A stretch of 64,000 nucleotides of DNA from Escherichia coli (GTDB lineage Bacteria; Pseudomonadota; Gammaproteobacteria; Enterobacterales; Enterobacteriaceae): assembly GCF_044324875.1 (NCBI RefSeq), contig NZ_CP172185.1. One strand, written 5' to 3'. Made by a program: the position numbers and the translations under genes. The notes beneath the pieces are model-generated. The model was not told where the DNA came from. It ran no database searches and was given only the letters and a program-made list of their open reading frames with translations. Below are positions 14,568 to 52,649 of the stretch, piece by piece; the first letter of the stretch is position 1, and every line of letters begins with the position of its first letter.

Positions 14568-16639
<2,072 letters not shown>

Positions 16640-22855: not shown

Positions 22856-22983
22856 ATTCGCCCCACAAAACTATGCAAATTCAATATATTGCATGAGTCG
22901 AATAGGCCTGACAGGCGTAGCACGTCAGACGGTGTAACCTTTGTCATCAACCCGCCTCTTTTTTAATCGCTCCCCGCCTGTTA

Positions 22984-33617: not shown

Positions 33618-35608
33618 ATGTTGCAACATTATTCAGCGTCATGGAAAAAAGGACTGACTGCACTCTGCTTACTGGCTGTTGCCGGGCTTAGCGGCTGCGA
33701 TCAAAAAGAGAATGCGGCGGCAAAAGTGGAATACGACGAACTTTCGAACAGCCAACCGCTGCGTGTCGATGCTAATAACCATACGGTAACCATGCTGGTG
33801 CAAATTAATGGTCGTTTCCTCACCGACGACACTCGTCACGGTATTGTGAACCGCCCCGGGTTTCCTGGAGAGTGTTTTATCTGTGAACTCAGGCTGCCAG
33901 ATCATCGTTTCCGATGGAAGCATAATAAGCTTTTTCTGCTTCTGCCGGTGGGATATGGCCCAGCCTTTCCAGCAATCGTCGATTGTTATACCAGTCCACC
34001 CACGTGAGTGTGGCCAGCTCCACTTCTGTCCGGTTTTTCCAGCTCTTACGGTGTATTACCTCCGCTTTGTAAAGGCCATTGATGCTCTCCGCCATCGCGT
34101 TGTCATACGAGTCACCAGTACTTCCTGTTGATGCCAGTAATCCGGCTTCCTTAAGCCGCTGTGTGTAGGCCAGCGATACATACTGAGAACCTTTATCACT
34201 GTGATGGACTGTGCCGGACGGTCGACGGGCCCATAACGCCTGCTCCAGAGCATCCAGCACGAATGTCGTTTCCATAGACGATGAGACCCGCCACCCCACG
34301 ATGTATCCGGCAAACACATCAATGATGAACGCCACATAGACGACCCCCTGCCATGTGCTGACGTAAGTAAAATCAGCCACCCACAACTGGTCAGGACGTT
34401 CTGCCACAAACTGACGGTTTACGCGGTCGCCTGCGGCAACGGCTTTCCGGCTGACGGTAGTGCGGACCTTTTTACCCCGGAGAACACCGGCAAGTCCCAT
34501 AACCGCCATGAGGCGCGCCACTGTACATCTGGCTACCCTGATTCCTTCCCGTAACAACTGACGCCAGACTTTACGCACACCGTATACCTGATGATTCCCA
34601 TCGTATACGCGCAGTATCTCTTTCTTCAGCCAGTCATCGCGCTGCGCACGGGCACTGCGTTTATCCGGATGATGTCGCTGTTGCTGACAGTGGTAATACG
34701 TTGACGGGGCAATATGTAGTTCACTGCATACCGGTCCGACCCCGTACAGCTTACGCAGCTTATCCAGCAGTGGCATCACTTTTTCCAGAGGCGGTCGAAC
34801 TCCGCCTTCGCAAAATAAGCGGAAGCCTGGCGAAGGATATCGTTACTGCGGCGCAGTTCACGATTTTCACGTTCCAGCTCTTTCAGACGCTGACGTTCAG
34901 CGGTGGTGAGCCCGCCATCACCGCCTCCGGTATCCCGCTCATGCTGGCGTACCCAGACACGCAGAGTCTCCGGTGTACAGCCAATCTTTGGGGCAATGGA
35001 ACAAATTGCCGCCCACTGTGAGTCATATTCGCCCTGACTTTCCAGAACCATACGAATCGCCCTCTGACGGACTTCGGGGGAAAAACGAGTATTTTTAGTC
35101 ATTCTGTTTACCTCTTTCTCAGGGAGTTTAGTCTCCAGGATTCCCGGGGCGGTTCATTGTGTTTAAAGATGGCTCCAACGGACATAAATCGCTGTTTATG
35201 GGTTATGCGACCCCGAAAGCATTTTATGAAGCCCTGAAAGAGGCAGGTGGTACACCGGGCGAAAACATGACGATGGATAATAAAGAAACGACTCATGTCA
35301 CAGGCAGCAAACTGGATATTTCGGTCAACTGGCAAGGGGCGGCAAAAGCGTATTCCTTCGATGAAGTGATTGTTGACAGTAATGGCAAGAAACTGGACAT
35401 GCGCTTTGGCGGTAATTTAACGGCAGCAGAAGAGAAGAAAACGGGCTGCCTGGTGTGTCTGGATAGCTGCCCGGTCGGCATCGTCAGCAATGCAACATAC
35501 ACTTATGGTGCGGTTGAAAAACGAGGTGAAGTTAAATTCAAAGGCAATGCCTCGGTTCTCCCGGCGGATAACACGCTGGCAACGGTTACCTTTAAAATCA
35601 CCGAATAA
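33618..35608 (+). pseudogene. ydjY: ydjY interrupted by IS629
   Basis: 5' part 33618..33846 (MLQHYSASWKKGLTALCLLAVAGLSGC…TRHGI) and 3' part 35157..35608 (VFKDGSNGHK…TFKITE) are in frame once the 1310-bp IS and one copy of the TTG duplication are removed. Confidence 0.8.
33847..35156 (-). mobile_element. IS629-like insertion sequence (IS3 family), copy 2, 1310 bp, inverted relative to copy 1
   Basis: Same termini; orfA 34776..35102 identical to copy 1; orfB 33889..34779 differs by a few residues (e.g. HPDKR vs HPYKR); 3-bp TSD TTG on both flanks. Confidence 0.85.
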
Positions 35609-36878: not shown

Positions 36879-37065
36879 GGAGGGTACTACCTTCACTTCT
36901 ACCTCTGCCTCCCAAACTCCGTAAAACTCATGCACAATCACCATATTACAGTCAACCCGAACATTATGAGCTCCACTGAATTCTACTGTTCACCCCCTAA
37001 ATCAAGCATAAAATGGGGGCATATTTGGGGGCCCATTGTGTTCAGTCAGTTTCAGGAGCCCCCAT

Positions 37066-38253
37066 ATGGCACTTACAGCCAGACAAGTCGAAACAGCCAA
37101 ACCTAAAGACAAAGATTATAAACTCTCTGATGAACGTGGTTTATATCTGCTGGTAAAAACCACGGGAGCACGCTACTGGCGCTTTAAGTACAGGATAGCA
37201 GGAAAGGAGAAAAAACTGTCCTTCGGTGTCTATCCTGACGTCTCCCTTGCAGAAGCCAGAACCAAACGCGACGATGCAAGGAAAATTATCTCCGAGGGCG
37301 GTGATCCCGGTGAAAAGAAACGAAGGGAAAAACTCTCACAGAAAATCTCTGTCACCAACACCTTCCATGCTCTCGCAATCGAATGGCATCATCATAAATC
37401 TTTATCATGGTCTGACAGTTACGCCAGAAGCGTACTGGAAGCTCTGGATAAAGACGTTTTCCCGTATCTGAGCAACCGGAGCGTTACTGATATCCTTCCA
37501 CTGGAAATGCTGGAAATACTACGTCGAATTGAAAAACGAGGCTCTCTGGAAAAACTACGCAAGGTCCGGCAATACTGCAATCAGATTTTCCGTTATGCCA
37601 TAGCCACAGGACGAGCCACTGTCAATCCAGCCTCAGAACTGAGCAGCACGCTGGCGGCACCAAAAACCGCACATTTTCCCCATCTGAGAGCGGATGAACT
37701 TCCTGTTTTTCTCCGGAAGCTCGCTGACTATCACGGCAGTCCTGTCACTCGTATGGCTACAAACCTGCTGATTCTGACCGGGCTCAGAACGATTGAATTG
37801 CGACTGGCCGAATGGTCAGAAATTGATTCTAGCAACGCACTCTGGCATATCCCTAGAGAGAGAATGAAAATGCGCCGGCCTCATATTGTTCCTCTGTCAC
37901 GCCAGGTCATTTCTGTTCTGCAGGAATTACATGGTTTTACCGGACAGTATCGCCTTATGCTACCCGGACGTTGCGATGTAAACAAACCTATGAGTGAAGG
38001 CTGCATCAATATGGTGCTCAAACGTATCGGTTACGATGGCAGGGCAACCGGTCATGGTTTTCGTCACACCATGAGTACCATTCTGCACGAACAGGGCTTT
38101 AATTCTGCCTGGATTGAAATGCAGTTAGCTCATGTGGATAAAAACTCCATCAGGGGTACCTATAATCATGCACATTATCTCGATGGTCGCCGTAAAATGA
38201 TGCAGTGGTACGCTGATTACATTGATTCTCTTATGGGAAAAACGCACAAATGA
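37066..38253 (+). CDS. int: P4-type tyrosine integrase (phage/island integrase)
   Basis: MALTARQVETAKPKDKDYKLSDERGLYLLVKTTGARYWRFKYR… typical P4-like N-terminus; catalytic region HGFRHT…RGTYNHAHY; RBS CAGGAG upstream. Confidence 0.85.
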   Translation: MALTARQVETAKPKDKDYKLSDERGLYLLVKTTGARYWRFKYRIAGKEKKLSFGVYPDVSLAEARTKRDDARKIISEGGDPGEKKRREKLSQKISVTNTFHALAIEWHHHKSLSWSDSYARSVLEALDKDVFPYLSNRSVTDILPLEMLEILRRIEKRGSLEKLRKVRQYCNQIFRYAIATGRATVNPASELSSTLAAPKTAHFPHLRADELPVFLRKLADYHGSPVTRMATNLLILTGLRTIELRLAEWSEIDSSNALWHIPRERMKMRRPHIVPLSRQVISVLQELHGFTGQYRLMLPGRCDVNKPMSEGCINMVLKRIGYDGRATGHGFRHTMSTILHEQGFNSAWIEMQLAHVDKNSIRGTYNHAHYLDGRRKMMQWYADYIDSLMGKTHK

Positions 38254-45110: not shown

Positions 45111-45663
45111 GAGCAGAAAGATCCGATGATTCCCCTACCGCCAGCTTTTCGCCTGCGCCGGTATACGTTTCTTTATCTTTGCCCTGCATCACCCACAGGC
45201 TGGCTCCGCCGATAATGGCGTTTTGTGGTGCATCTTTCGCGTCAGCGTCGTAAGGCATCATGCCTACGCCGTAGTTGAATTTGGCGTACTCGCGAATGTT
45301 GGCAAGAGAACCGGAAGAGGCGGTGGTCATCGCGCAATCACCTCTATAGAACTTCTCGGTGGATTCATCCTTACGCCCGACGTAGATGAAGTCGCCCTTC
45401 TTGTTCATCTCCTCGAGCATGACGATGTGTTTCACCTGCTCCGGCTTGTTGAACTCCAGCACCGCGTCCGTGGCGTCAAAACCGTTGTTTTTGCTGGCAA
45501 ACGGCAGACCGTTCCTGGCGCTAAAGTTTTCCAGTTGTATCCACCTCTTTGCCCATTTCCCCTTCCATAGAGTTCCAAAACGGAATGGTCGTCACTGCCT
45601 GTGCATTGCCCATTAACGCCAGTCCGAGCACCAGTGATGAAGCTGTATAATGTAACGGTTTCA
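45091..45663 (-). pseudogene. ugpB: sn-glycerol-3-phosphate-binding protein UgpB remnant (internal deletion, 3' truncation)
   Basis: [30 protein letters not shown] (N-terminus) then jump to [36 protein letters not shown]…[17 protein letters not shown], then divergence near 45100. Confidence 0.65.
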
Positions 45664-46419
45664 TCGTTTATCTCTCTTGCTTGTTGTACCTGATGTGCAA
45701 ATTCACTCGTTTTATGCTCGCGGGATTACATATCATGCCCGAATTGCAGAAAAATAACTTTTTATTACATGTGTAAGACAGTAAAACCTCAGAAAGATGA
45801 CAGTGTGGTGCCGGCGCGGGTGAGGAAAAATGGAAGATGGGGAATGTATAAGCGGGAAAATAGGAGGGCCTGTGGATTGTAGATAATGTGCTCATCGTTT
45901 TCATGCCGGATGAGACATAAACACTTTTATCTGAGCATTTCTATGTATTCGGACAGTTGTTCTTGGCATCCAATGGTGCAGGTTCTGTAGTGTGTGGTGG
46001 TAGCAATAGCCTCAGCTTCATTACAATATTTATTATCTCAAACATTCAAATGTCCTTGGCCCACTTTGATAGTCACTTTGTCGTGGTTATTATGTCTTTC
46101 CTTTTCCTAAAGCCCCATTATCTGTGCTGCAGCTTTCCCTCCATCAACGAACCAACAACCAGCAATGCCTGTCCCCCATAACAGCCCGGAAAATGGCACA
46201 TTCTCAGATGATTTATCCCGCGAGCTATCCCGCCTACAGCTAATCGACCTGTTTAATACATCTTGACAGTCTGCTGGCAAGGTTACCCTTCCCAATATTG
46301 TCCGTTTTTAACATATCTAATACGAGCCCCCATCAAATATGCTTCGTGTTCACTGTAAGTGACTAAAAGTGCTGTCTGCCCTGCCTCATGCAAAATATCA
46401 CGAACTTCACGGCTCAGTC

Positions 46420-46921
46420 CTACCCTTGTTTTTTATCCAAGCTGGAAAATGGTTCATCTAGCAACAGGATATCTGGATTTGGAACCAGTGACCTTGCAAG
46501 GGCAATACGTTGCTGCTGACCTCCTGAAAGTTCATGAGGATAGCTGTCTGAATAGTGGAATAAATCCACCATTTTCAACAGTTCTGTAACTCTGGTTCGC
46601 TGTACATCTCTCGGCAGTCTTCTCAGACCAAAGCCACGTTTTGTGAAACTGTAAGGTGGGGAAAGAGCGCATATTCCTGAAAGACTATACCGACATGACA
46701 TTTCTCCGGCGGAAAATGCATATCTGCGCTGGCCACACAATGCTGTGATACAAAAATTTCCCCTTGTTCAGGCGCTCAAAACCAGCTACAGCACGTAGTA
46801 CTGTTGTTTTTCCACAACCTGATGTACCAAGCAGACATGCCAGTTCACCTTTACAGACTGACATACCCCCCGCCCCGCAATACAGGATATGGGCTATTGG
46901 GATAAACAACATGGACATCAT
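46420..46921 (-). pseudogene. ABC transporter ATPase (Fe3+/thiamine-type), frameshifted
   Basis: Walker A GTSGCGKTT (46685..46921) and ABC signature [15 protein letters not shown] plus Walker [12 protein letters not shown] (46420..46740) in different frames. Confidence 0.6.
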
Positions 46922-46951
46922 TAATACATAAAGCTGTTTCTTCAGACATAA

Positions 46952-47552
46952 TCAATCCTCTGATTTCAGTCTTTCAGCTGGAACAAACAAAATAACCGGA
47001 AATGTCCCTGCAAGAACAATCATTAAAGCAGAGATGGCCCCTTCTTCAAAAGTTCCACGGGCTGCTTCAGCATAAAGAAGTGTTACTGGCAGTTCTTTCA
47101 TCGCATCAGTGAAAACCAGCAGGGCACTGCTCACCAGAGCAACACAGGAAAGTGAACCCGAACAAAAGTTCCTGTACCATTTTCTCCCAGCAGACGTGAG
47201 GCTTGTTCCAGTGACGCTGGTATACGTCCCAGCCGGACATCAAGTGCGCCGATGGCTATTGCCTGAAATCGCATCGTACAGCAAATCACCAACAGGACAC
47301 CGACAGACATTAAAGGTAACCCCCTGTAATCCAGTAGTTCCGCCAGCCAGCGGTCATTTAGGGAGTCAGAAAACCAATCGCCAGAATCGTGCCCGGAAAG
47401 GCATAACCCAGCGACGCCCCTCTCATCACACCGCGCCTGAACAGTGGCATAGCGTTGAGGAATTCCGGGCATTCCAGACTACGAGCAGACTGACAAAAAT
47501 TACGACAAAGCGTTGAAGGAAGCCAGCGCGCGGACTGACAGGACTTTACCAT
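46952..47552 (-). pseudogene. ABC transporter permease (binding-protein-dependent, AfuB/FbpB-like), fragmented
   Basis: Three consecutive short ORFs with permease features, including an EAA-loop-like RIPASLEQASRLLGENGTGTFVRVHFPVL. Confidence 0.5.
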
Positions 47553-47822
47553 AAAAACACAGGCTAACCGCGCCTGCGTTTTTAATGACGGATGAAACAG
47601 AATCAGGTGCCGATTATGCCGCCGTCGGCTTTTACGATAACGACAGTTGAGGAGCGCGGACGACCAGCCTTATCGCCGTCAGGCCAGCTTGATACTGCCG
47701 TCGGATGCTGCGGATCGCTAAGCTGCGTATTCCGCTCTATTCGATCACGGATTGGCATCGAAGTCCGATCAGCGATTCGCATCCATTCGATCAACCGGGA
47801 ACTTAACTTTTTCTACCGCTTT

Positions 47823-48578
47823 TTAACGCGTTTTTTCGCTGCTTTCCACTACCGGGGGATTTTTCCTCAGTGACTCTCCCTGAAGGACCACTCGGTGTGA
47901 GTTATGTACCAGTCTGTCCAGGATGGCATCTGCTGTTGTTGGGTTCTCCATCAGACCATGCCATTTATCTACCGGGAACTGGCTTACCACTATCGTGCTG
48001 CTTTGTCCGTAACGATCCTCTATGAGCTCCAGAAGGTCATTACACTGGGCGTTACTTAACTGTTCCAGCCCCAGATCGTCCAGGATTAGAACCTGTATTT
48101 TTTGCAACTGTTTCAGATATTTCAGCCAGCTGCCATCAACACGTCCCTGAGCCAGTTGTTCCAGTAATCGCCCGGTTCTACAGTACCGGACGCTGTGTTT
48201 CTGTCGACATGCCTGTTCGCCCAGCGCATTGGCTATCCAGCTCTTGCCACATCCTGTCGGACCGGTTATCAGCAGGTTTTTCCTGTGGGTTATGTAGTGG
48301 CCGTTCAGCAGTTCTCTCATCTGTTCAGCCCGCAGACCTCTTGAGGCCGGATAGCGCAGCCCTTCCGGTGTTGCCTGGTATTTCAGGCCGGCATTTTTTC
48401 TCAACCGTGCCACACGGCTGTTTTCCCTGCTCAGAAGCTCGTCATCAACCAGCAGCGTCAGCCTTTCCTCGAACGACAGTTCGTCGTAGGTCTGAGGCGT
48501 TTCCCGCTGCCGTATCAGGCTCCCGGCCATCGCCGGGAGTTTCAGTTGGGTCAGTTTGTTTAACAGGTTATCACTCAT
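47823..48578 (-). CDS. istB: IS21-family helper ATPase IstB
   Basis: MSDNLLNKLTQLKLPAMAGSL… with Walker A GPTGCGKS and Walker B VLILDDLG. Confidence 0.8.
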   Translation of the reverse strand: MSDNLLNKLTQLKLPAMAGSLIRQRETPQTYDELSFEERLTLLVDDELLSRENSRVARLRKNAGLKYQATPEGLRYPASRGLRAEQMRELLNGHYITHRKNLLITGPTGCGKSWIANALGEQACRQKHSVRYCRTGRLLEQLAQGRVDGSWLKYLKQLQKIQVLILDDLGLEQLSNAQCNDLLELIEDRYGQSSTIVVSQFPVDKWHGLMENPTTADAILDRLVHNSHRVVLQGESLRKNPPVVESSEKTR

Positions 48579-48594
48579 ACTGTTGTTCCTTCTG

Positions 48595-50160
48595 TCAGTG
48601 GTAGTAGCCCGGACCACGCAGGTTTTCATGCTCTGAAGCATATGCCGGATGTTGTTCGCCCTGGCGGGATAATGGAAGCTCCAGGTTCTCCCGATGGTGA
48701 CGCAGCAGATTGTCGATAAAGCGTCTGTCAGGGGCGTTATAGTGCAGGGCAACGTAACAGGCCTTTTCCAGCCGTTCCGGGCCGTATTTTTTCTGAAGTG
48801 CCAGCAGCCCCAGAACTGCACGATAAGCCAGTTCCGGATGGGGTTTTGCCTTCAGCATGGATTCAACCACCCGGCCTGTGGACGGGCCCGTACGTTTTCC
48901 CTGCTCGATCAGGCGTTCCGGTGTCCATGTCCCGTGCTGCCGGTGGCGCTCTGGCATGTGAAGCGGATTGGTTGTGTGTTTATATTCATGTGTGCTGCGC
49001 GGATGTTGCGCCACACACTGCCCCTTGTGCCAGAGCTGTACCACCGACTGCCCCGCCTTCAGTGACAGACGCTGACCGACCAGTTCGTGTGGAACGGAGT
49101 ACCAGTGACGGGCATATTCAACGTGGTAGTCAGGGCCAACCTTCACAGCTTTGTATTCCGTGTATTCATAAGGTGCCAGAGGCAGCGGAGAGAGTGCTGG
49201 CGCATCCAGTATGCGGAAGCGTTCTGCACGGGTTTGATTGCCGTACCCCTTCATTGGCCGGTTATTCATGTCTGTCAGTAACTCCCTAAGGCGCGCATTC
49301 AGCGCCCTGAGCGTGTGGAAGGTTTCATTACGGATGCGGGCAAGAAGCCATCGTTCAACGATGAGGACGCCGTTTTCTGCTTTTGGTTTATCTTTAGGTT
49401 TGCGTGGTCGGGCCGGGATGATAACCGTGCCATAGTGCTCAGCCAGTGCCTGATAACTGTCGTTGATGACAGGCTCATATCGATCGGCCTTTTTCACTGC
49501 GCTTCTGAGGTTATCGGGGATGAGCAGCTTCGGTACGCCGCCCAGGAAGGTCAGGCAACGGCTGTGGGCATTTAACCATGACATCATGTCCTGACCTTCG
49601 CACGCTTCAACGTAGGTATAGTTGGACGCCCCCATTACGGCCACGAAGATTGCCACGCGGCGTATCTCACCGGTGTCCGGATTAATAACAGGAACCGTAG
49701 GACCACAGAAGTCGATAAAAAGCTTTTCGCCGGCACGATGCTCCTGGCGCATGGAGAGACGTCGCGTTTTTTTCCACTCCCGGTAGCAACGGCAGAAGTG
49801 CGAGTATCCCATCGCTTTGTTACCCGCCTGTGCCTTGTATTCCATCCACAACAGTTGCCGCGTCACACCTGGTTTTCTCATTTCCGTATCGAAGTACAAC
49901 ATGTCAGGCATTACAAGCTCTGATGCAAAGGTGTCTTTGGGCGGAAAAATGAGTTTCTCCAGCGTGTCATGGGATATATCAGCAGGTAATGGCCATGACA
50001 GAGAAGAGGCTTTGAAGCGGGCAAGAACCTCAAAAACGGTTGAGGCGCTGATGTGTAACGTCAGTCCGATACAACGGTTAGTCAGCTTCTTGTCGAACTT
50101 GAGCTGAAGGATCTTAAAACAGGTTTCCATAGTGCTCCTGGATTTTCTCTTTCTGGACAT
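48595..50160 (-). CDS. istA: IS21-family transposase IstA
   Basis: About 510-520 aa with HTH N-terminus and DDE integrase core; start codon uncertain (ORF extends to 50241). Confidence 0.75.
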   Translation of the reverse strand: MSRKRKSRSTMETCFKILQLKFDKKLTNRCIGLTLHISASTVFEVLARFKASSLSWPLPADISHDTLEKLIFPPKDTFASELVMPDMLYFDTEMRKPGVTRQLLWMEYKAQAGNKAMGYSHFCRCYREWKKTRRLSMRQEHRAGEKLFIDFCGPTVPVINPDTGEIRRVAIFVAVMGASNYTYVEACEGQDMMSWLNAHSRCLTFLGGVPKLLIPDNLRSAVKKADRYEPVINDSYQALAEHYGTVIIPARPRKPKDKPKAENGVLIVERWLLARIRNETFHTLRALNARLRELLTDMNNRPMKGYGNQTRAERFRILDAPALSPLPLAPYEYTEYKAVKVGPDYHVEYARHWYSVPHELVGQRLSLKAGQSVVQLWHKGQCVAQHPRSTHEYKHTTNPLHMPERHRQHGTWTPERLIEQGKRTGPSTGRVVESMLKAKPHPELAYRAVLGLLALQKKYGPERLEKACYVALHYNAPDRRFIDNLLRHHRENLELPLSRQGEQHPAYASEHENLRGPGYYH

Positions 50161-50241
50161 TGACGTCTCCACTGGTTTAAACACGGCAATGGAGACTGTG
50201 GTGAAAAGAGTTAATTCCCGGAGTGACTGGCAGGATGCCAA

Positions 50242-52227
50242 TCAATGATCGGAAGCATGCCAAATCGTGATCGATTGTGATGCCAAACTGTGATCGGAGA
50301 TGGATGCCAAATCATGATCGATTCGAATGCCAAACTGCGATCGATTCAGATGCCATTTTGCACTAAGCCCTTCGCTTGGCTCGCCAGGGTGCTGGATGTT
50401 AATAAACAGCGTCCGGTTATCCGGAGTGAACGCGATGCCGGTGATTTCGCAGCCGCGCGGGCCGGTCAGGAAGCGGCGGAACTCATTGGTACCGGGAATC
50501 GTCGCCACCATCTGGTTGTTGCCCATGCCTTTGTAATCTTTAATATTTATGGTTGATGACGACACGTCGGTCTGGATCCATAGCACGCCGCGGTGATCGA
50601 AGCTCAGGCCATCGGCGCTGCCGAATTCCGCACCCTTCATGCTGCCTTTGGTTTCCGGTTTGTCTGTATCGGTGCGACCGCCCATCACAAGAATATCCCA
50701 GGCAAACTGCAGCGCGGTCGGGTCACCGTTATGCTCCAGCCAGTGAATGATGTGGCCGTAAACGTTTTTGGCGCGCGGGTTGGCCGCATCCACTGGCGCT
50801 TTTCCTTCCTTACCGCGATCGCTGTTGTTGGTGAGCGTGCAGTAAACGCTGCCGGCGTGATATGGATCGACCGCAATCCACTCCGGGCGGTCCATTTTAG
50901 TGGCCCCCACGGCGTCTGCCGCCAGACGGGTTTTAATCAACAGGTCGCCCTGGTTTTCAAACCCTTTACTGGCGTCGAGCCCATTTTGTCCGAACACCAG
51001 CGGTAGCCACTCGCCTTTGCCGTCGTCGTTAAATTTCGCCACGTACAGAGTGCCTTTTTCCAGCAGGTGCATGTTGGCTTTGCGATCCTGCGGGTTGAAT
51101 TTTCCTTCCGAGACAAATTTATATATGTATTCGAATTTCTGGTCATCGCCCATATAGACCACAACGCGGTTATCCGGGGCAATTGTCACCGCTGCGCCTT
51201 CGTGTTTGATGCGACCAAGCGCGGTGTGCTTGCGCGGCACTGAATGCGGATCGTATGGATCGATTTCCACCACCCAGCCGAAGCGGTTCGGCTCGTTCGG
51301 CGTGGCGTCGACGCTGAACCTTTTATCCACTTCGTTCCAGCGGTAAGAGTCGTCGCTCCCGCTGATACCGTAACGTTTTTCCAGCGGGTTCATCTCTGCT
51401 TTTTTTACGAAAATATCGGACCAGTTCTCTTCACACGTCAGATAGGTGCCCCACGGCGTAAATCCGTTGGCACAGTTCTGCATGGTGCCGAGAATGATTT
51501 CGCCTTTCGGATCGTCAACTGTTTGCATCAGTGGGTTATGCAGCGCCGGACCGGTGATTTTCATCGGCGTGTTAACGGTGATGCGGCGTGCGAACGATGA
51601 CGGGCGCACCACTTCCCAGCCCAGGGGCACTTTTTTTACTTCAATGACCGACACGCCCATCGCGTTCTGGCCTTTAAGAGCTTTATCGGCGCTCCAGTTG
51701 GCATCGCCATCTTTAAACAGTAGACCGTTATCGATGTATTCATGGTTTATGGCAAGCAGGCCGTGATCGGAGCTGTTCCCGCCCTGCGGCAGGCTAAACC
51801 ACGCCATGCCGTCGTGGTGCATCCCGGCCTGCGCCGCCTGTTCTTCCGTGGTGTTGCTACCGTCGGTTTTAAAAACCGGCAGATTTCCGGCAATCCCGGT
51901 GGCGTCGCCCCATTTGTAGAAGGGCTTCGCGATGTATCCTTCCGGCACGATAACGGTATCTTCCGTGGAAACCGGCAGGCTGGTGAAACCGAGCGTCGTC
52001 GCTTTGCCGAGGTTACCGCTTGCTTTGGAGACCACTTTCGCCAGCGCGTTTTCCTGTTTCAGCAGAAATGGGAACGCTGCCGCGGCACCGGCGACCGTGC
52101 CTGCCTGTAACAGACGGCGGCGTGACAAATAGACTTCCGCCACCTGCGAAAACGCGCGGTTATCGCTCGGGTTACTGATTTCTTCACTATGCTCACGTTT
52201 GAATAAAGTTTTTAACGGTCTGCCCAT
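50242..52227 (-). CDS. Tat-signal secreted PhoX-family (DUF839) phosphatase-like protein; C-terminus replaced by IS21-derived codons
   Basis: 661-aa ORF; twin-arginine motif SRRRLLQAGTVAGAAAA; beta-propeller-like repeats; last about 40 codons read through the IS21 terminal repeats. Confidence 0.45.
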   Translation of the reverse strand: MGRPLKTLFKREHSEEISNPSDNRAFSQVAEVYLSRRRLLQAGTVAGAAAAFPFLLKQENALAKVVSKASGNLGKATTLGFTSLPVSTEDTVIVPEGYIAKPFYKWGDATGIAGNLPVFKTDGSNTTEEQAAQAGMHHDGMAWFSLPQGGNSSDHGLLAINHEYIDNGLLFKDGDANWSADKALKGQNAMGVSVIEVKKVPLGWEVVRPSSFARRITVNTPMKITGPALHNPLMQTVDDPKGEIILGTMQNCANGFTPWGTYLTCEENWSDIFVKKAEMNPLEKRYGISGSDDSYRWNEVDKRFSVDATPNEPNRFGWVVEIDPYDPHSVPRKHTALGRIKHEGAAVTIAPDNRVVVYMGDDQKFEYIYKFVSEGKFNPQDRKANMHLLEKGTLYVAKFNDDGKGEWLPLVFGQNGLDASKGFENQGDLLIKTRLAADAVGATKMDRPEWIAVDPYHAGSVYCTLTNNSDRGKEGKAPVDAANPRAKNVYGHIIHWLEHNGDPTALQFAWDILVMGGRTDTDKPETKGSMKGAEFGSADGLSFDHRGVLWIQTDVSSSTINIKDYKGMGNNQMVATIPGTNEFRRFLTGPRGCEITGIAFTPDNRTLFINIQHPGEPSEGLSAKWHLNRSQFGIRIDHDLASISDHSLASQSITIWHASDH

Positions 52228-52649
52228 TGCGGTTTCCTTTCAAAAAATCGATTTCAAGGGGAATCATTTTTATGCACGTGAGTCTACGGAAAGATTGTTA
52301 CGGAAATATAACAATTGTCATAAAAAACCGGCGATAAAATCATCTATGGTCGGGACGCGGTTTCAGGTATGATGTGAGGCTAGAATTCTGAACGCTCTCT
52401 TTTGTTGAGCATATATGGACGTCCCAGATGAGGCAAGTACTGGTTCGATGCGGTTTGCGACCATATATCCGGCGTCGTTAGTAGGTTCAATGACCTGCGC
52501 CATGATGTTATCCGGGCCCTGTTTCCTAATCACTACACCGGTATTTGATTACCCAGGTCAACTTCAGACTGTTACAGGGGCGGTAGCCGTTATCTCATCA
52601 GTGAATGTAAACTCAGTTAAAAATATTTTCTATAACTTACTGTTTTTCT

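What the first reader, a model, noticed from the sequence alone, without database searches (positions are those of the whole stretch)
46420..47552. Decayed Fe3+-type ABC transporter (permease + ATPase) upstream of the ugpB remnant
Walker A, signature and Walker B motifs are present but split across frames; the permease is in three pieces. Reminiscent of afuBC-type remnants in cryptic prophage regions; an example of gene decay in the island.
Basis: partly seen in the sequence, partly recalled or inferred. Interest (0 to 1): 0.3.

Follow-up and report, generated by a model that had tools for sequence, protein, structure and literature searches.

The report
Dead remnant of an iron-uptake transporter
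This is an ordinary, already-annotated wreck of a ferric-iron ABC importer: the binding-protein gene and two thirds of the permease are gone and the ATPase has four frameshifts, and dozens of E. coli genomes carry it unchanged inside a decaying genomic island.

Summary
On the minus strand, window 46949->46283 is a full-length but dead ABC ATPase gene. It has four frameshifts, one extra codon, and Tyr in place of the H-loop His. Window 47506->46952 holds only the last ~204 of 562 codons of a fused-type permease. That remnant carries five small frameshifting deletions, a 39-nt in-frame deletion and an in-frame TAA.

Intact relatives are three-gene operons: binding protein 345 aa, permease 562 aa, ATPase 225-233 aa. 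They occur in Buttiauxella, Citrobacter and Salmonella, and as an intact E. coli paralogue in another island. The best identity is 74% for the ATPase and 82% for the permease. The binding proteins of those operons match Bordetella pertussis FbpA (PDB 1Y9U, E 1e-150), so "Fe3+-type" holds by orthology. It is not an AfuBC, ThiPQ or PhnTU member.

Three independent complete E. coli genomes that I aligned carry every indel found in the window, and 54 genomes match at 99.6% or more. Sequencing error is therefore excluded. NCBI's PGAP pipeline already annotates both genes as frameshifted pseudogenes.

The 5' break of the permease remnant abuts the 3' flank of a Cronobacter-like phoX, so the adjacency is a rearrangement scar and not an operon. 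The finding's bounds should be 46283-47506. Interest is low and nothing here is novel.

The parts
46283..46949 (-). fbpC-like ABC ATPase pseudogene. It is full length against intact 225-233 aa orthologues. It has four frameshifts: +1 in a G run at ~46866, -1 at ~46768, -1 at ~46633, and -1 in an A run at ~46431. It also has one extra codon at codon 4, H-loop His replaced by Tyr (~46355), and a stop at 46283-46285.
   Evidence: PGAP annotates the same span as 'ABC transporter ATP-binding protein, frameshifted'.
46952..47506 (-). fbpB-like permease remnant. It holds only codons ~359-562 of a 562-codon fused (two-half) permease. Lesions: 1-nt deletion at ~47509/47500, three 7-nt deletions (~47461, ~47356, ~47141), an in-frame TAA at ~47360, a 39-nt in-frame deletion (~47086) and a 5-nt deletion (~46980). 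The EAA-like loop LEQASRLLGENG survives at 47211->47176.
   Evidence: PGAP: 'iron ABC transporter permease, frameshifted; missing N-terminus'.
47507..47602 (-). Context: the 3' flank of phoX, Cronobacter-like, with a terminator-like hairpin followed by a T run. The break-point with the permease remnant lies at ~47507. No binding-protein gene and no 5' two thirds of the permease lie between the two.
   Evidence: blastn to Cronobacter locus L016 runs from phoX through its stop codon to window 47507; no match to the binding protein anywhere in the window.
47603..47723 (-). Context: the last 120 bp of phoX, separated from the rest of the gene (50363-52227) by the IS insertion.
47724..50362 (-). 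Context: an ISSso4-like IS21-family element (istA and istB) inserted in phoX and flanked by the 5-bp direct repeat CTAAG (47719-47723 and 50363-50367).
45923..46282 (.). Unassigned 360-bp spacer between the ATPase stop codon and the ugpB-promoter-like sequence. It has no similarity to the flanks of intact operons or to anything else fetched.
45148..45922 (-). Context: the ugpB remnant with ~258 bp of its upstream region. It is ~87-91% identical to the core E. coli ugpB and has an internal deletion of ~456 bp.

Best explanation
The region is the non-functional 3' third of a three-gene ferric-iron ABC importer operon with the order binding protein, fused permease, short ATPase.

Shown:
- An illegitimate-recombination or deletion event removed the binding-protein gene and about 358 codons of the permease. 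It joined the rest to the 3' flank of an unrelated, Cronobacter-like phoX gene.
- The surviving ~1.2 kb carries at least nine frameshifting indels, one 39-nt deletion, an in-frame stop and a catalytic His->Tyr change.
- The lesions are fixed: three independent complete E. coli genomes that I aligned carry every indel found in the window.

Inferred:
- Nothing functional is made. There is no binding protein, no complete membrane domain and no translatable ATPase.
- The ancestral substrate was Fe3+. This is inferred from the binding proteins of intact orthologous operons.
- The gene was functional for most of its history and came from a lineage of the family for which no intact copy closer than 74% has been sampled. 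This is inferred from the dominance of third-codon-position differences.
For: Frameshift-aware protein-to-DNA alignment and a nucleotide multiple alignment against five intact operons locate each lesion.

Intact operons have the architecture binding protein 345-349 aa, permease 562 aa, ATPase 225-231 aa, and sit in unrelated chromosomal contexts. Their binding protein matches B. pertussis FbpA 1Y9U (E 1.6e-150), Mannheimia FbpA 1Q35 (E 3e-84) and other structures deposited as ferric- or iron-binding proteins. No binding-protein homologue is found in the window.

The remnant occurs in 94 of 5426 complete E. coli genomes, always at 99% identity or more apart from one record in the 95-99% band, and none holds an intact version. 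L001, L010 and L011 carry every indel found in the window, and L011 has one 52-nt duplication besides. PGAP marks both genes as frameshifted or incomplete.

The phoX homology to Cronobacter (92.5% nt, 96% aa) continues 99 bp past the stop codon to window 47507. Cronobacter and Franconibacter phoX have no fbp genes beside them.

Differences from intact orthologues are mostly at third codon positions, for example 107:46:236.
Against: Fe3+ specificity is not shown for this copy, because its own binding-protein gene is gone. It is also not shown experimentally here for the enterobacterial orthologues.

No expression data were available, so a residual RNA-level role or a small-peptide role is not excluded.

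dS is saturated in every comparison with the window copy, so the timing of inactivation is only qualitative.

The order of events, truncation first or frameshifts first, cannot be resolved.
Confidence: 0.93

Rival explanations
1. The frameshifts are sequencing or assembly errors and the genes are really intact.
For: Two of the four ATPase frameshifts lie in homopolymer runs, a G run at ~46866 and an A run at ~46431. Such runs are typical sites of sequencing error.
Against: Three independent complete genomes from different laboratories and hosts (L001, L010, L011) carry every indel found in the window, and 54 genomes match the 1371-bp query at 99.6-99.9%. The permease also lacks 358 codons and has 7-nt and 39-nt deletions, which no base-calling error produces.
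Confidence: 0.01
2. phoX, the transporter remnant and the ugpB remnant are what is left of one functional organophosphate-scavenging module. On this reading the transporter would be an AfuABC-like sugar-phosphate importer or a phosphonate importer, not an iron importer.
For: All three neighbours have phosphate-related or PhoX-cofactor-related themes. The best NCBIfam scores for the ATPase and for the intact permease are to the putative 2-aminoethylphosphonate models PhnT2 and PhnU2. From my own knowledge, AfuABC was shown to carry sugar phosphates.
Against: The three pieces have different origins: phoX is 92.5% nt identical to Cronobacter, ugpB is ~90% identical to the E. coli core gene, and the fbp remnant is at most 74% aa identical to anything. 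The phoX-fbpB joint falls inside the permease coding sequence and in the phoX 3' flank. Intact orthologous operons are never next to phoX in the five contexts inspected, and Cronobacter and Franconibacter phoX are not next to fbp. The PhnT2 and PhnU2 scores are far below cut-off (197 against 458; 97 against 593). The orthologues' binding proteins match ferric-binding proteins at E 1e-150, against E 1e-14 for PhnS.
Confidence: 0.04
3. The remnant is a decayed duplicate of the intact fbp-like operon that many E. coli carry in another island.
For: An intact paralogous operon exists in E. coli, and one ATPase sequence, P0028, is on record on about 1000 contigs (the tool's counting cap). In strain GF4 the paralogue coexists with the remnant.
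Against: Identity to that paralogue is only 68-70% aa for the ATPase and 66-74% for the permease. That is lower than to Buttiauxella (73-74% and 72-82%). dN to the paralogue is 0.25, with differences mostly at third positions. This is divergence under selection in a separate lineage, not decay of a recent copy.
Confidence: 0.02
4. The split genes are still used, for example through programmed frameshifting or as separate sub-domain polypeptides.
For: None beyond the persistence of the sequence at 99.6% identity or more across the genomes that hold the full remnant. Recent spread of the island explains that equally well.
Against: Four frameshifts in alternating directions, loss of the catalytic H-loop His, no binding protein, and about a third of one permease. 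In 40 genomes the ATPase and part of the permease remnant are missing altogether while phoX is annotated as an intact gene in the two such genomes examined.
Confidence: 0.01

Closest known systems
Intact three-gene operons of Buttiauxella agrestis (a source names the ATPase 'FbpC 2'), Citrobacter freundii and Salmonella enterica subsp. diarizonae, plus the intact E. coli island paralogue
   Same: Same family and gene order. The ATPase is 74% (Buttiauxella) and 69.5% (E. coli paralogue) identical over aligned codons, and the permease C-terminus 82% and 74%. The short ATPase lacks a C-terminal regulatory domain.
   Different: Those operons are intact and include the binding protein and the full 562-aa permease. 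The window copy is a separate lineage (dN ~0.19-0.25), truncated and frameshifted.
Bordetella pertussis FbpA (PDB 1Y9U, 2OWS, 2OWT) and the FbpABC ferric-iron importers of Neisseria, Haemophilus and Mannheimia
   Same: The binding proteins of the intact orthologous operons match 1Y9U at E 1e-144 to 1e-150 and Mannheimia FbpA 1Q35 at E 1e-82 to 1e-84. FbpABC is the periplasm-to-cytosol Fe3+ ABC system (PMC3832793).
   Different: The window has no binding-protein gene at all. Similarity of the stitched ATPase to Neisseria FbpC 3FVQ is only generic (E 1e-40, below several non-iron ATPases). FbpC is 359 aa in the 3FVQ entry, against ~230 aa for the intact orthologues here.
E. coli K-12 CP4-6 prophage afuB'-afuC
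   Same: Same kind of wreck. The binding-protein gene is lost, the permease is cut to its 3' end (349 bp, by IS1), and the ATPase lies downstream, all inside a horizontally acquired, IS-ridden region.
   Different: It is not the same family branch: 39.6% identity to AfuC, no detectable similarity to the afuB remnant, and the AfuC equivalog model is not met. K-12 afuC is intact at 348 aa, whereas the ATPase here has four frameshifts.

Membership tests
ABC-transporter nucleotide-binding domain (Pfam PF00005) | Walker A, Q-loop, signature LSGGQ, Walker B and D-loop are recognisable | tested here: met
   Motifs located. PF00005 E 1.4e-29 on the stitched translation.
ABC-transporter nucleotide-binding domain (Pfam PF00005) | One continuous reading frame with the catalytic H-loop histidine | tested here: not met
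   Four frameshifts. The H-loop reads VTYSEHEA where all five intact relatives have a His codon.
FbpABC-type ferric-iron ABC importer (branch whose binding protein resembles B. pertussis FbpA 1Y9U) | ATPase and permease are orthologous to operons with binding protein, fused 2x BPD_transp_1 permease and ATPase | tested here: met
   tblastn E 9e-48 and 1e-58. Best hits are 72-74% identical and sit in such operons.
FbpABC-type ferric-iron ABC importer (branch whose binding protein resembles B. pertussis FbpA 1Y9U) | A cognate periplasmic ferric-binding protein is encoded in the locus | tested here: not met
   No binding-protein homologue in the 64-kb window at E<0.1. It is present only in orthologous operons, where it matches 1Y9U at E 1e-150.
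FbpABC-type ferric-iron ABC importer (branch whose binding protein resembles B. pertussis FbpA 1Y9U) | Complete fused permease (~560 aa, two transmembrane halves) | tested here: not met
   Only codons ~359-562 remain, with further deletions.
FbpABC-type ferric-iron ABC importer (branch whose binding protein resembles B. pertussis FbpA 1Y9U) | Transports Fe3+ | not testable with these tools
   Substrate is inferred only from sequence similarity of the orthologues' binding proteins to structures deposited as ferric- or iron-binding proteins.
AfuBC (E. coli K-12 CP4-6; AfuABC) | Meets the NCBIfam equivalog NF008513 (ferric ABC transporter ATP-binding protein, the best-scoring ferric ATPase model) and has AfuC's ~350-aa architecture with a C-terminal domain | tested here: not met
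   151 bits against a cut-off of 496. 39.6% identity to K-12 AfuC. Intact orthologues are 225-233 aa. The permease remnant has no similarity to the afuB remnant.
ThiPQ thiamine importer | Meets the ThiQ and ThiP equivalog models | tested here: not met
   ThiQ: NF008039 117 bits against 298, TIGR01277 128 against 245. The intact orthologous permease scores 35 bits against 679 for ThiP.
PhnS2/T2/U2 and PhnSTUV 2-aminoethylphosphonate importers | Meets the equivalog models TIGR03265, TIGR03262 and TIGR03261 | tested here: not met
   These are the best-scoring NCBIfam models but fall far below cut-off: 197 against 458 (stitched ATPase), 97 against 593 (intact permease) and 51 against 393 (intact binding protein).
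Fixed bacterial pseudogene | Disabling lesions relative to intact homologues, shared by independent genomes | tested here: met
   PGAP pseudogene flags.

The most novel reading that the evidence does not exclude
The remnant is a molecular fossil of a third lineage of the enterobacterial FbpABC-like family. No intact representative closer than 74% (ATPase) exists among 5.8 billion protein clusters. Its fusion to the flank of an iron-cofactor phosphatase gene (phoX) might reflect a former functional pairing on the ancestral mobile element and not a random scar.
Probability: 0.04. Interest if true: 0.25.

Novelty: already known. Interest (0 to 1): 0.07.

Why it matters
It matters little. It is a textbook case of gene decay in a degenerate integrative element, and NCBI's annotation pipeline already flags it in dozens of genomes.

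Its practical uses are modest:
- The shared indels and the phoX-fbpB junction are a clean lineage marker for this ynjA-adjacent island and its two structural variants.
- Automatic labels such as 'iron ABC transporter permease' at this locus should not be counted as an iron-uptake capability in virulence-gene inventories.

Tried and rejected
- Pfam and NCBIfam on the stitched permease remnant gave no hit. It is identifiable only against intact orthologues.
- I looked for the missing binding-protein gene anywhere in the window with two intact orthologues and found none.
- I tested whether phoX and the transporter were ancestrally linked. In five intact-operon contexts and two phoX contexts they are never adjacent, so I rejected the idea.
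- I tried to date the inactivation by dN/dS. dS is saturated or undefined in comparisons with the window copy, so only the codon-position pattern is usable.
- The 360-bp spacer 45923-46282 has no similarity to the flanks of intact operons, to the other loci I compared it with, or to the rest of the window. It stays unassigned.
- Direct comparison with K-12 afuB'/afuC showed analogy only.
- I did not spend the genome contigs or metagenome scans, the structure prediction or the 1.84-billion-protein search. The answer did not depend on them.
- I did not identify the source organism of the window. No complete RefSeq E. coli genome has the ISSso4 insertion in phoX, which would fit a Shigella or an unfinished E. 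coli genome, but this is untested.

Full report
**1. What is in the sequence**

All relevant features are on the minus strand. Three-frame translation of 47760->45050 and the ORF list show fragments of an ABC ATPase and of a membrane permease. Pfam ABC_tran matches two separate ORF fragments: 46420-46740 at E 1.4e-12, which holds the signature and Walker B, and 46685-46921 at E 7.3e-08, which holds Walker A.

The motif coordinates are as follows:
- Walker A GTSGCGKT, 46828->46805, frame 2.
- Q-loop FQEYALF, 46682->46662, frame 1.
- Signature LSGGQQQR, 46530->46507, frame 0.
- Walker B ILLLDEP, 46470->46450, and the D-loop, both frame 0.
- H-loop region, 46369->46340, frame 2.

**2. Intact relatives and a frameshift-tolerant alignment**

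A search with the stitched ATPase translation found thousands of relatives. The best are 225-233 aa proteins at 72-74% identity, from Buttiauxella and unnamed metagenomic contigs. Citrobacter freundii follows at 71%, Salmonella diarizonae at 69%, and an intact E. coli protein on record on about 1000 contigs (the tool's counting cap) at 68%.

In every context inspected the gene is the last of a three-gene operon: binding protein (345-349 aa), permease (562 aa with two BPD_transp_1 halves), ATPase (225-231 aa). The surroundings of these operons are unrelated to one another.

tblastn with these proteins against the window gives E 9e-48 for the ATPase (residues 3-219 of 231) and E 1e-58 for the permease (residues ~359-554 of 562). 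The binding protein gives no hit.

A protein-to-DNA dynamic-programming alignment that allows frameshifts and a MAFFT nucleotide alignment with five intact operons locate the lesions.

ATPase, window 46949->46283:
- One extra codon at codon 4.
- +1 nt in a G run at ~46866.
- -1 nt at ~46768.
- -1 nt at ~46633.
- -1 nt in an A run at ~46431.
- H-loop His replaced by Tyr.

Permease remnant, window 47506->46952:
- 5' truncation at about codon 359.
- A 1-nt deletion near 47500-47509.
- Three 7-nt deletions at ~47461, ~47356 and ~47141.
- An in-frame TAA at ~47360.
- A 39-nt in-frame deletion at ~47086.
- A 5-nt deletion at ~46980.

About 1.22 kb of a ~3.4-kb operon survives.

**3. Not a sequencing artefact, and already annotated**

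The 1371-bp stretch 46250-47620 occurs in 94 of 5426 complete E. coli genomes, always on the chromosome, and all but one record are at 99% identity or more. Fifty-four genomes hold all of it. Forty hold only 47066/47072-47620.

Pairwise comparison with three independent genomes shows only 2-5 differences from the window. Every indel found in the window is present in them. One of the three also has a 52-nt tandem duplication.

PGAP annotates 'ABC transporter ATP-binding protein, frameshifted' and 'iron ABC transporter permease, frameshifted; missing N-terminus' at exactly these positions. No intact allele of this lineage exists in that collection.

**4. Which family**

The binding proteins of the intact operons match B. 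pertussis FbpA (1Y9U, 2OWS, 2OWT) at E 1.6e-150 and 5.5e-144. The alignment is nearly full length and includes the tandem-Tyr segment. Mannheimia FbpA 1Q35 follows at about 1e-84, then other structures deposited as ferric- or iron-binding proteins. FbpABC is the classical periplasm-to-cytosol Fe3+ system (PMC3832793). 'Fe3+-type' is thus supported by orthology, but not for this copy directly.

No NCBIfam equivalog model is met:
- PhnT2: 197 bits against a cut-off of 458.
- The ferric ABC ATPase equivalog NF008513: 151 against 496.
- ThiQ: 117 against 298.
- For the intact permease, PhnU2: 97 against 593, and ThiP: 35 against 679.

K-12 AfuC is only 39.6% identical to the stitched ATPase, and the K-12 afuB remnant shows no similarity to the permease remnant. 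The afuBC parallel is one of geometry and not of family.

ExPEC literature lists an 'Fbp system' (fbpABCD) among island-borne iron systems (PMC7545054). I did not establish whether the intact E. coli paralogue seen here is that system.

**5. Origin and surroundings**

The window's island starts with an integrase (37036-38253) next to ynjA. No tRNA gene lies in the window. The island contains iha, ICE-protein pseudogenes and many IS fragments.

The phoX gene upstream is 96% aa and 92.5% nt identical to a sequence named as Cronobacter universalis by one source. The nucleotide homology continues 99 bp past the stop codon to window 47507, exactly where permease homology begins. Neither Cronobacter nor Franconibacter phoX has fbp genes beside it. 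The phoX-fbpB adjacency is therefore a rearrangement scar and not an operon.

Downstream of the ATPase lie 360 unassigned bp. After those comes a ugpB fragment with its upstream region, ~87-91% identical to core ugpB and carrying an internal deletion. The segment is a patchwork of pieces of different ancestry.

Differences between the remnant and intact orthologues are concentrated at third codon positions, for example 107:46:236. Its dN to the Buttiauxella, Citrobacter and Salmonella group (~0.19) equals that of the intact E. coli paralogue to the same group, while its dN to that paralogue is 0.25. By inference, it is a separate lineage that was under purifying selection for most of its history. 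dS is saturated, so inactivation cannot be dated.

**6. Mechanism**

As it stands the locus cannot work. There is no binding protein, only about a third of one permease, and an untranslatable ATPase that also lacks its catalytic His. That 40 genomes have lost the ATPase and part of the permease remnant, while phoX is annotated as an intact gene in the two such genomes I examined, fits with dispensability.

In the window itself phoX is also broken, by an ISSso4-like IS21-family element (47724-50362) flanked by the 5-bp repeat CTAAG. No complete RefSeq E. coli genome shares this insertion.

**7. Verdict**

The feature is ordinary and already annotated, it is not novel, and its interest is low.

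Noticed in passing
window 47724-50362 (with 47719-47723 and 50363-50367): An ISSso4-like IS21-family element splits phoX and is flanked by the 5-bp direct repeat CTAAG. None of the 5426 complete RefSeq E. coli genomes has this insertion, and phoX is annotated as an intact gene in every carrier genome I examined. This hints that the window comes from a Shigella or an unfinished E. coli genome.
   Followed up: partly
window 47507-47723 and 50363-52327: phoX, plus 99 bp of 3' flank and ~100 bp of 5' flank, is 92.5% nt and 96% aa identical to a Cronobacter chromosomal locus (L016). There it sits between an MFS sugar transporter gene and a metNIQ-like transporter. It looks like a piece of foreign chromosome captured by the island.
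   Followed up: partly
window 45148-45922: A second, diverged copy of ugpB (~87-91% identical to the core gene). It includes ~258 bp of the upstream region and the signal peptide, has a ~456-bp internal deletion, and abuts an IS66 tnpA pseudogene.
   Followed up: partly
window 45923-46282: A 360-bp stretch between the ATPase stop codon and the ugpB-upstream homology. It has no detectable similarity to the other loci it was compared with or to the rest of the window.
   Followed up: partly
L012 and L013 (E. coli EC21Z-147 and Ecol_AZ159); window break at ~47066/47072: Forty E. coli genomes carry a second island variant. In it the sequence left of ~47066/47072 is replaced by an outer-membrane-protein gene and an intact phosphoethanolamine transferase gene. 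The window-type island keeps only a fragment of such a transferase next to its integrase.
   Followed up: partly
L011 (E. coli AR13438), after window position 47403: A 52-nt tandem duplication inside the permease remnant in one strain. This is ongoing neutral change.
   Followed up: no
L015 (E. coli GF4, NZ_CP172217.1 1178535-1181949) and H45: Strain GF4 carries both the decayed copy and an intact paralogous three-gene operon. The intact operon lies in a different island, next to Ag43, CbtA/YeeU and ISEc8.
   Followed up: partly
window 15590-15706 (+) and 34705-34821 (-): Two ALIL pseudoknot hits (the IS3-family frameshift signal) with identical scores of 116.2 bits, in inverted orientation about 19 kb apart. 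They bracket the ast operon, xthA and ydjX-ynjA. Two copies of one IS could serve as an inversion substrate.
   Followed up: no
window 22867-22909 (+): An Rfam hit to the ES036 (CssrF) sRNA just above the gathering score (38.9 against 37.6 bits).
   Followed up: no
window 47216 and 47419: Two substitutions private to the window relative to the three full-length E. coli copies compared: G where they have T, and C where they have A.
   Followed up: no
L007 (Citrobacter freundii): The intact orthologous operon lies beside cobT-cobS-cobU. ExPEC literature places an 'Fbp system' in PAI-cobU islands (PMC7545054). Whether these are the same operon was not checked.
   Followed up: no
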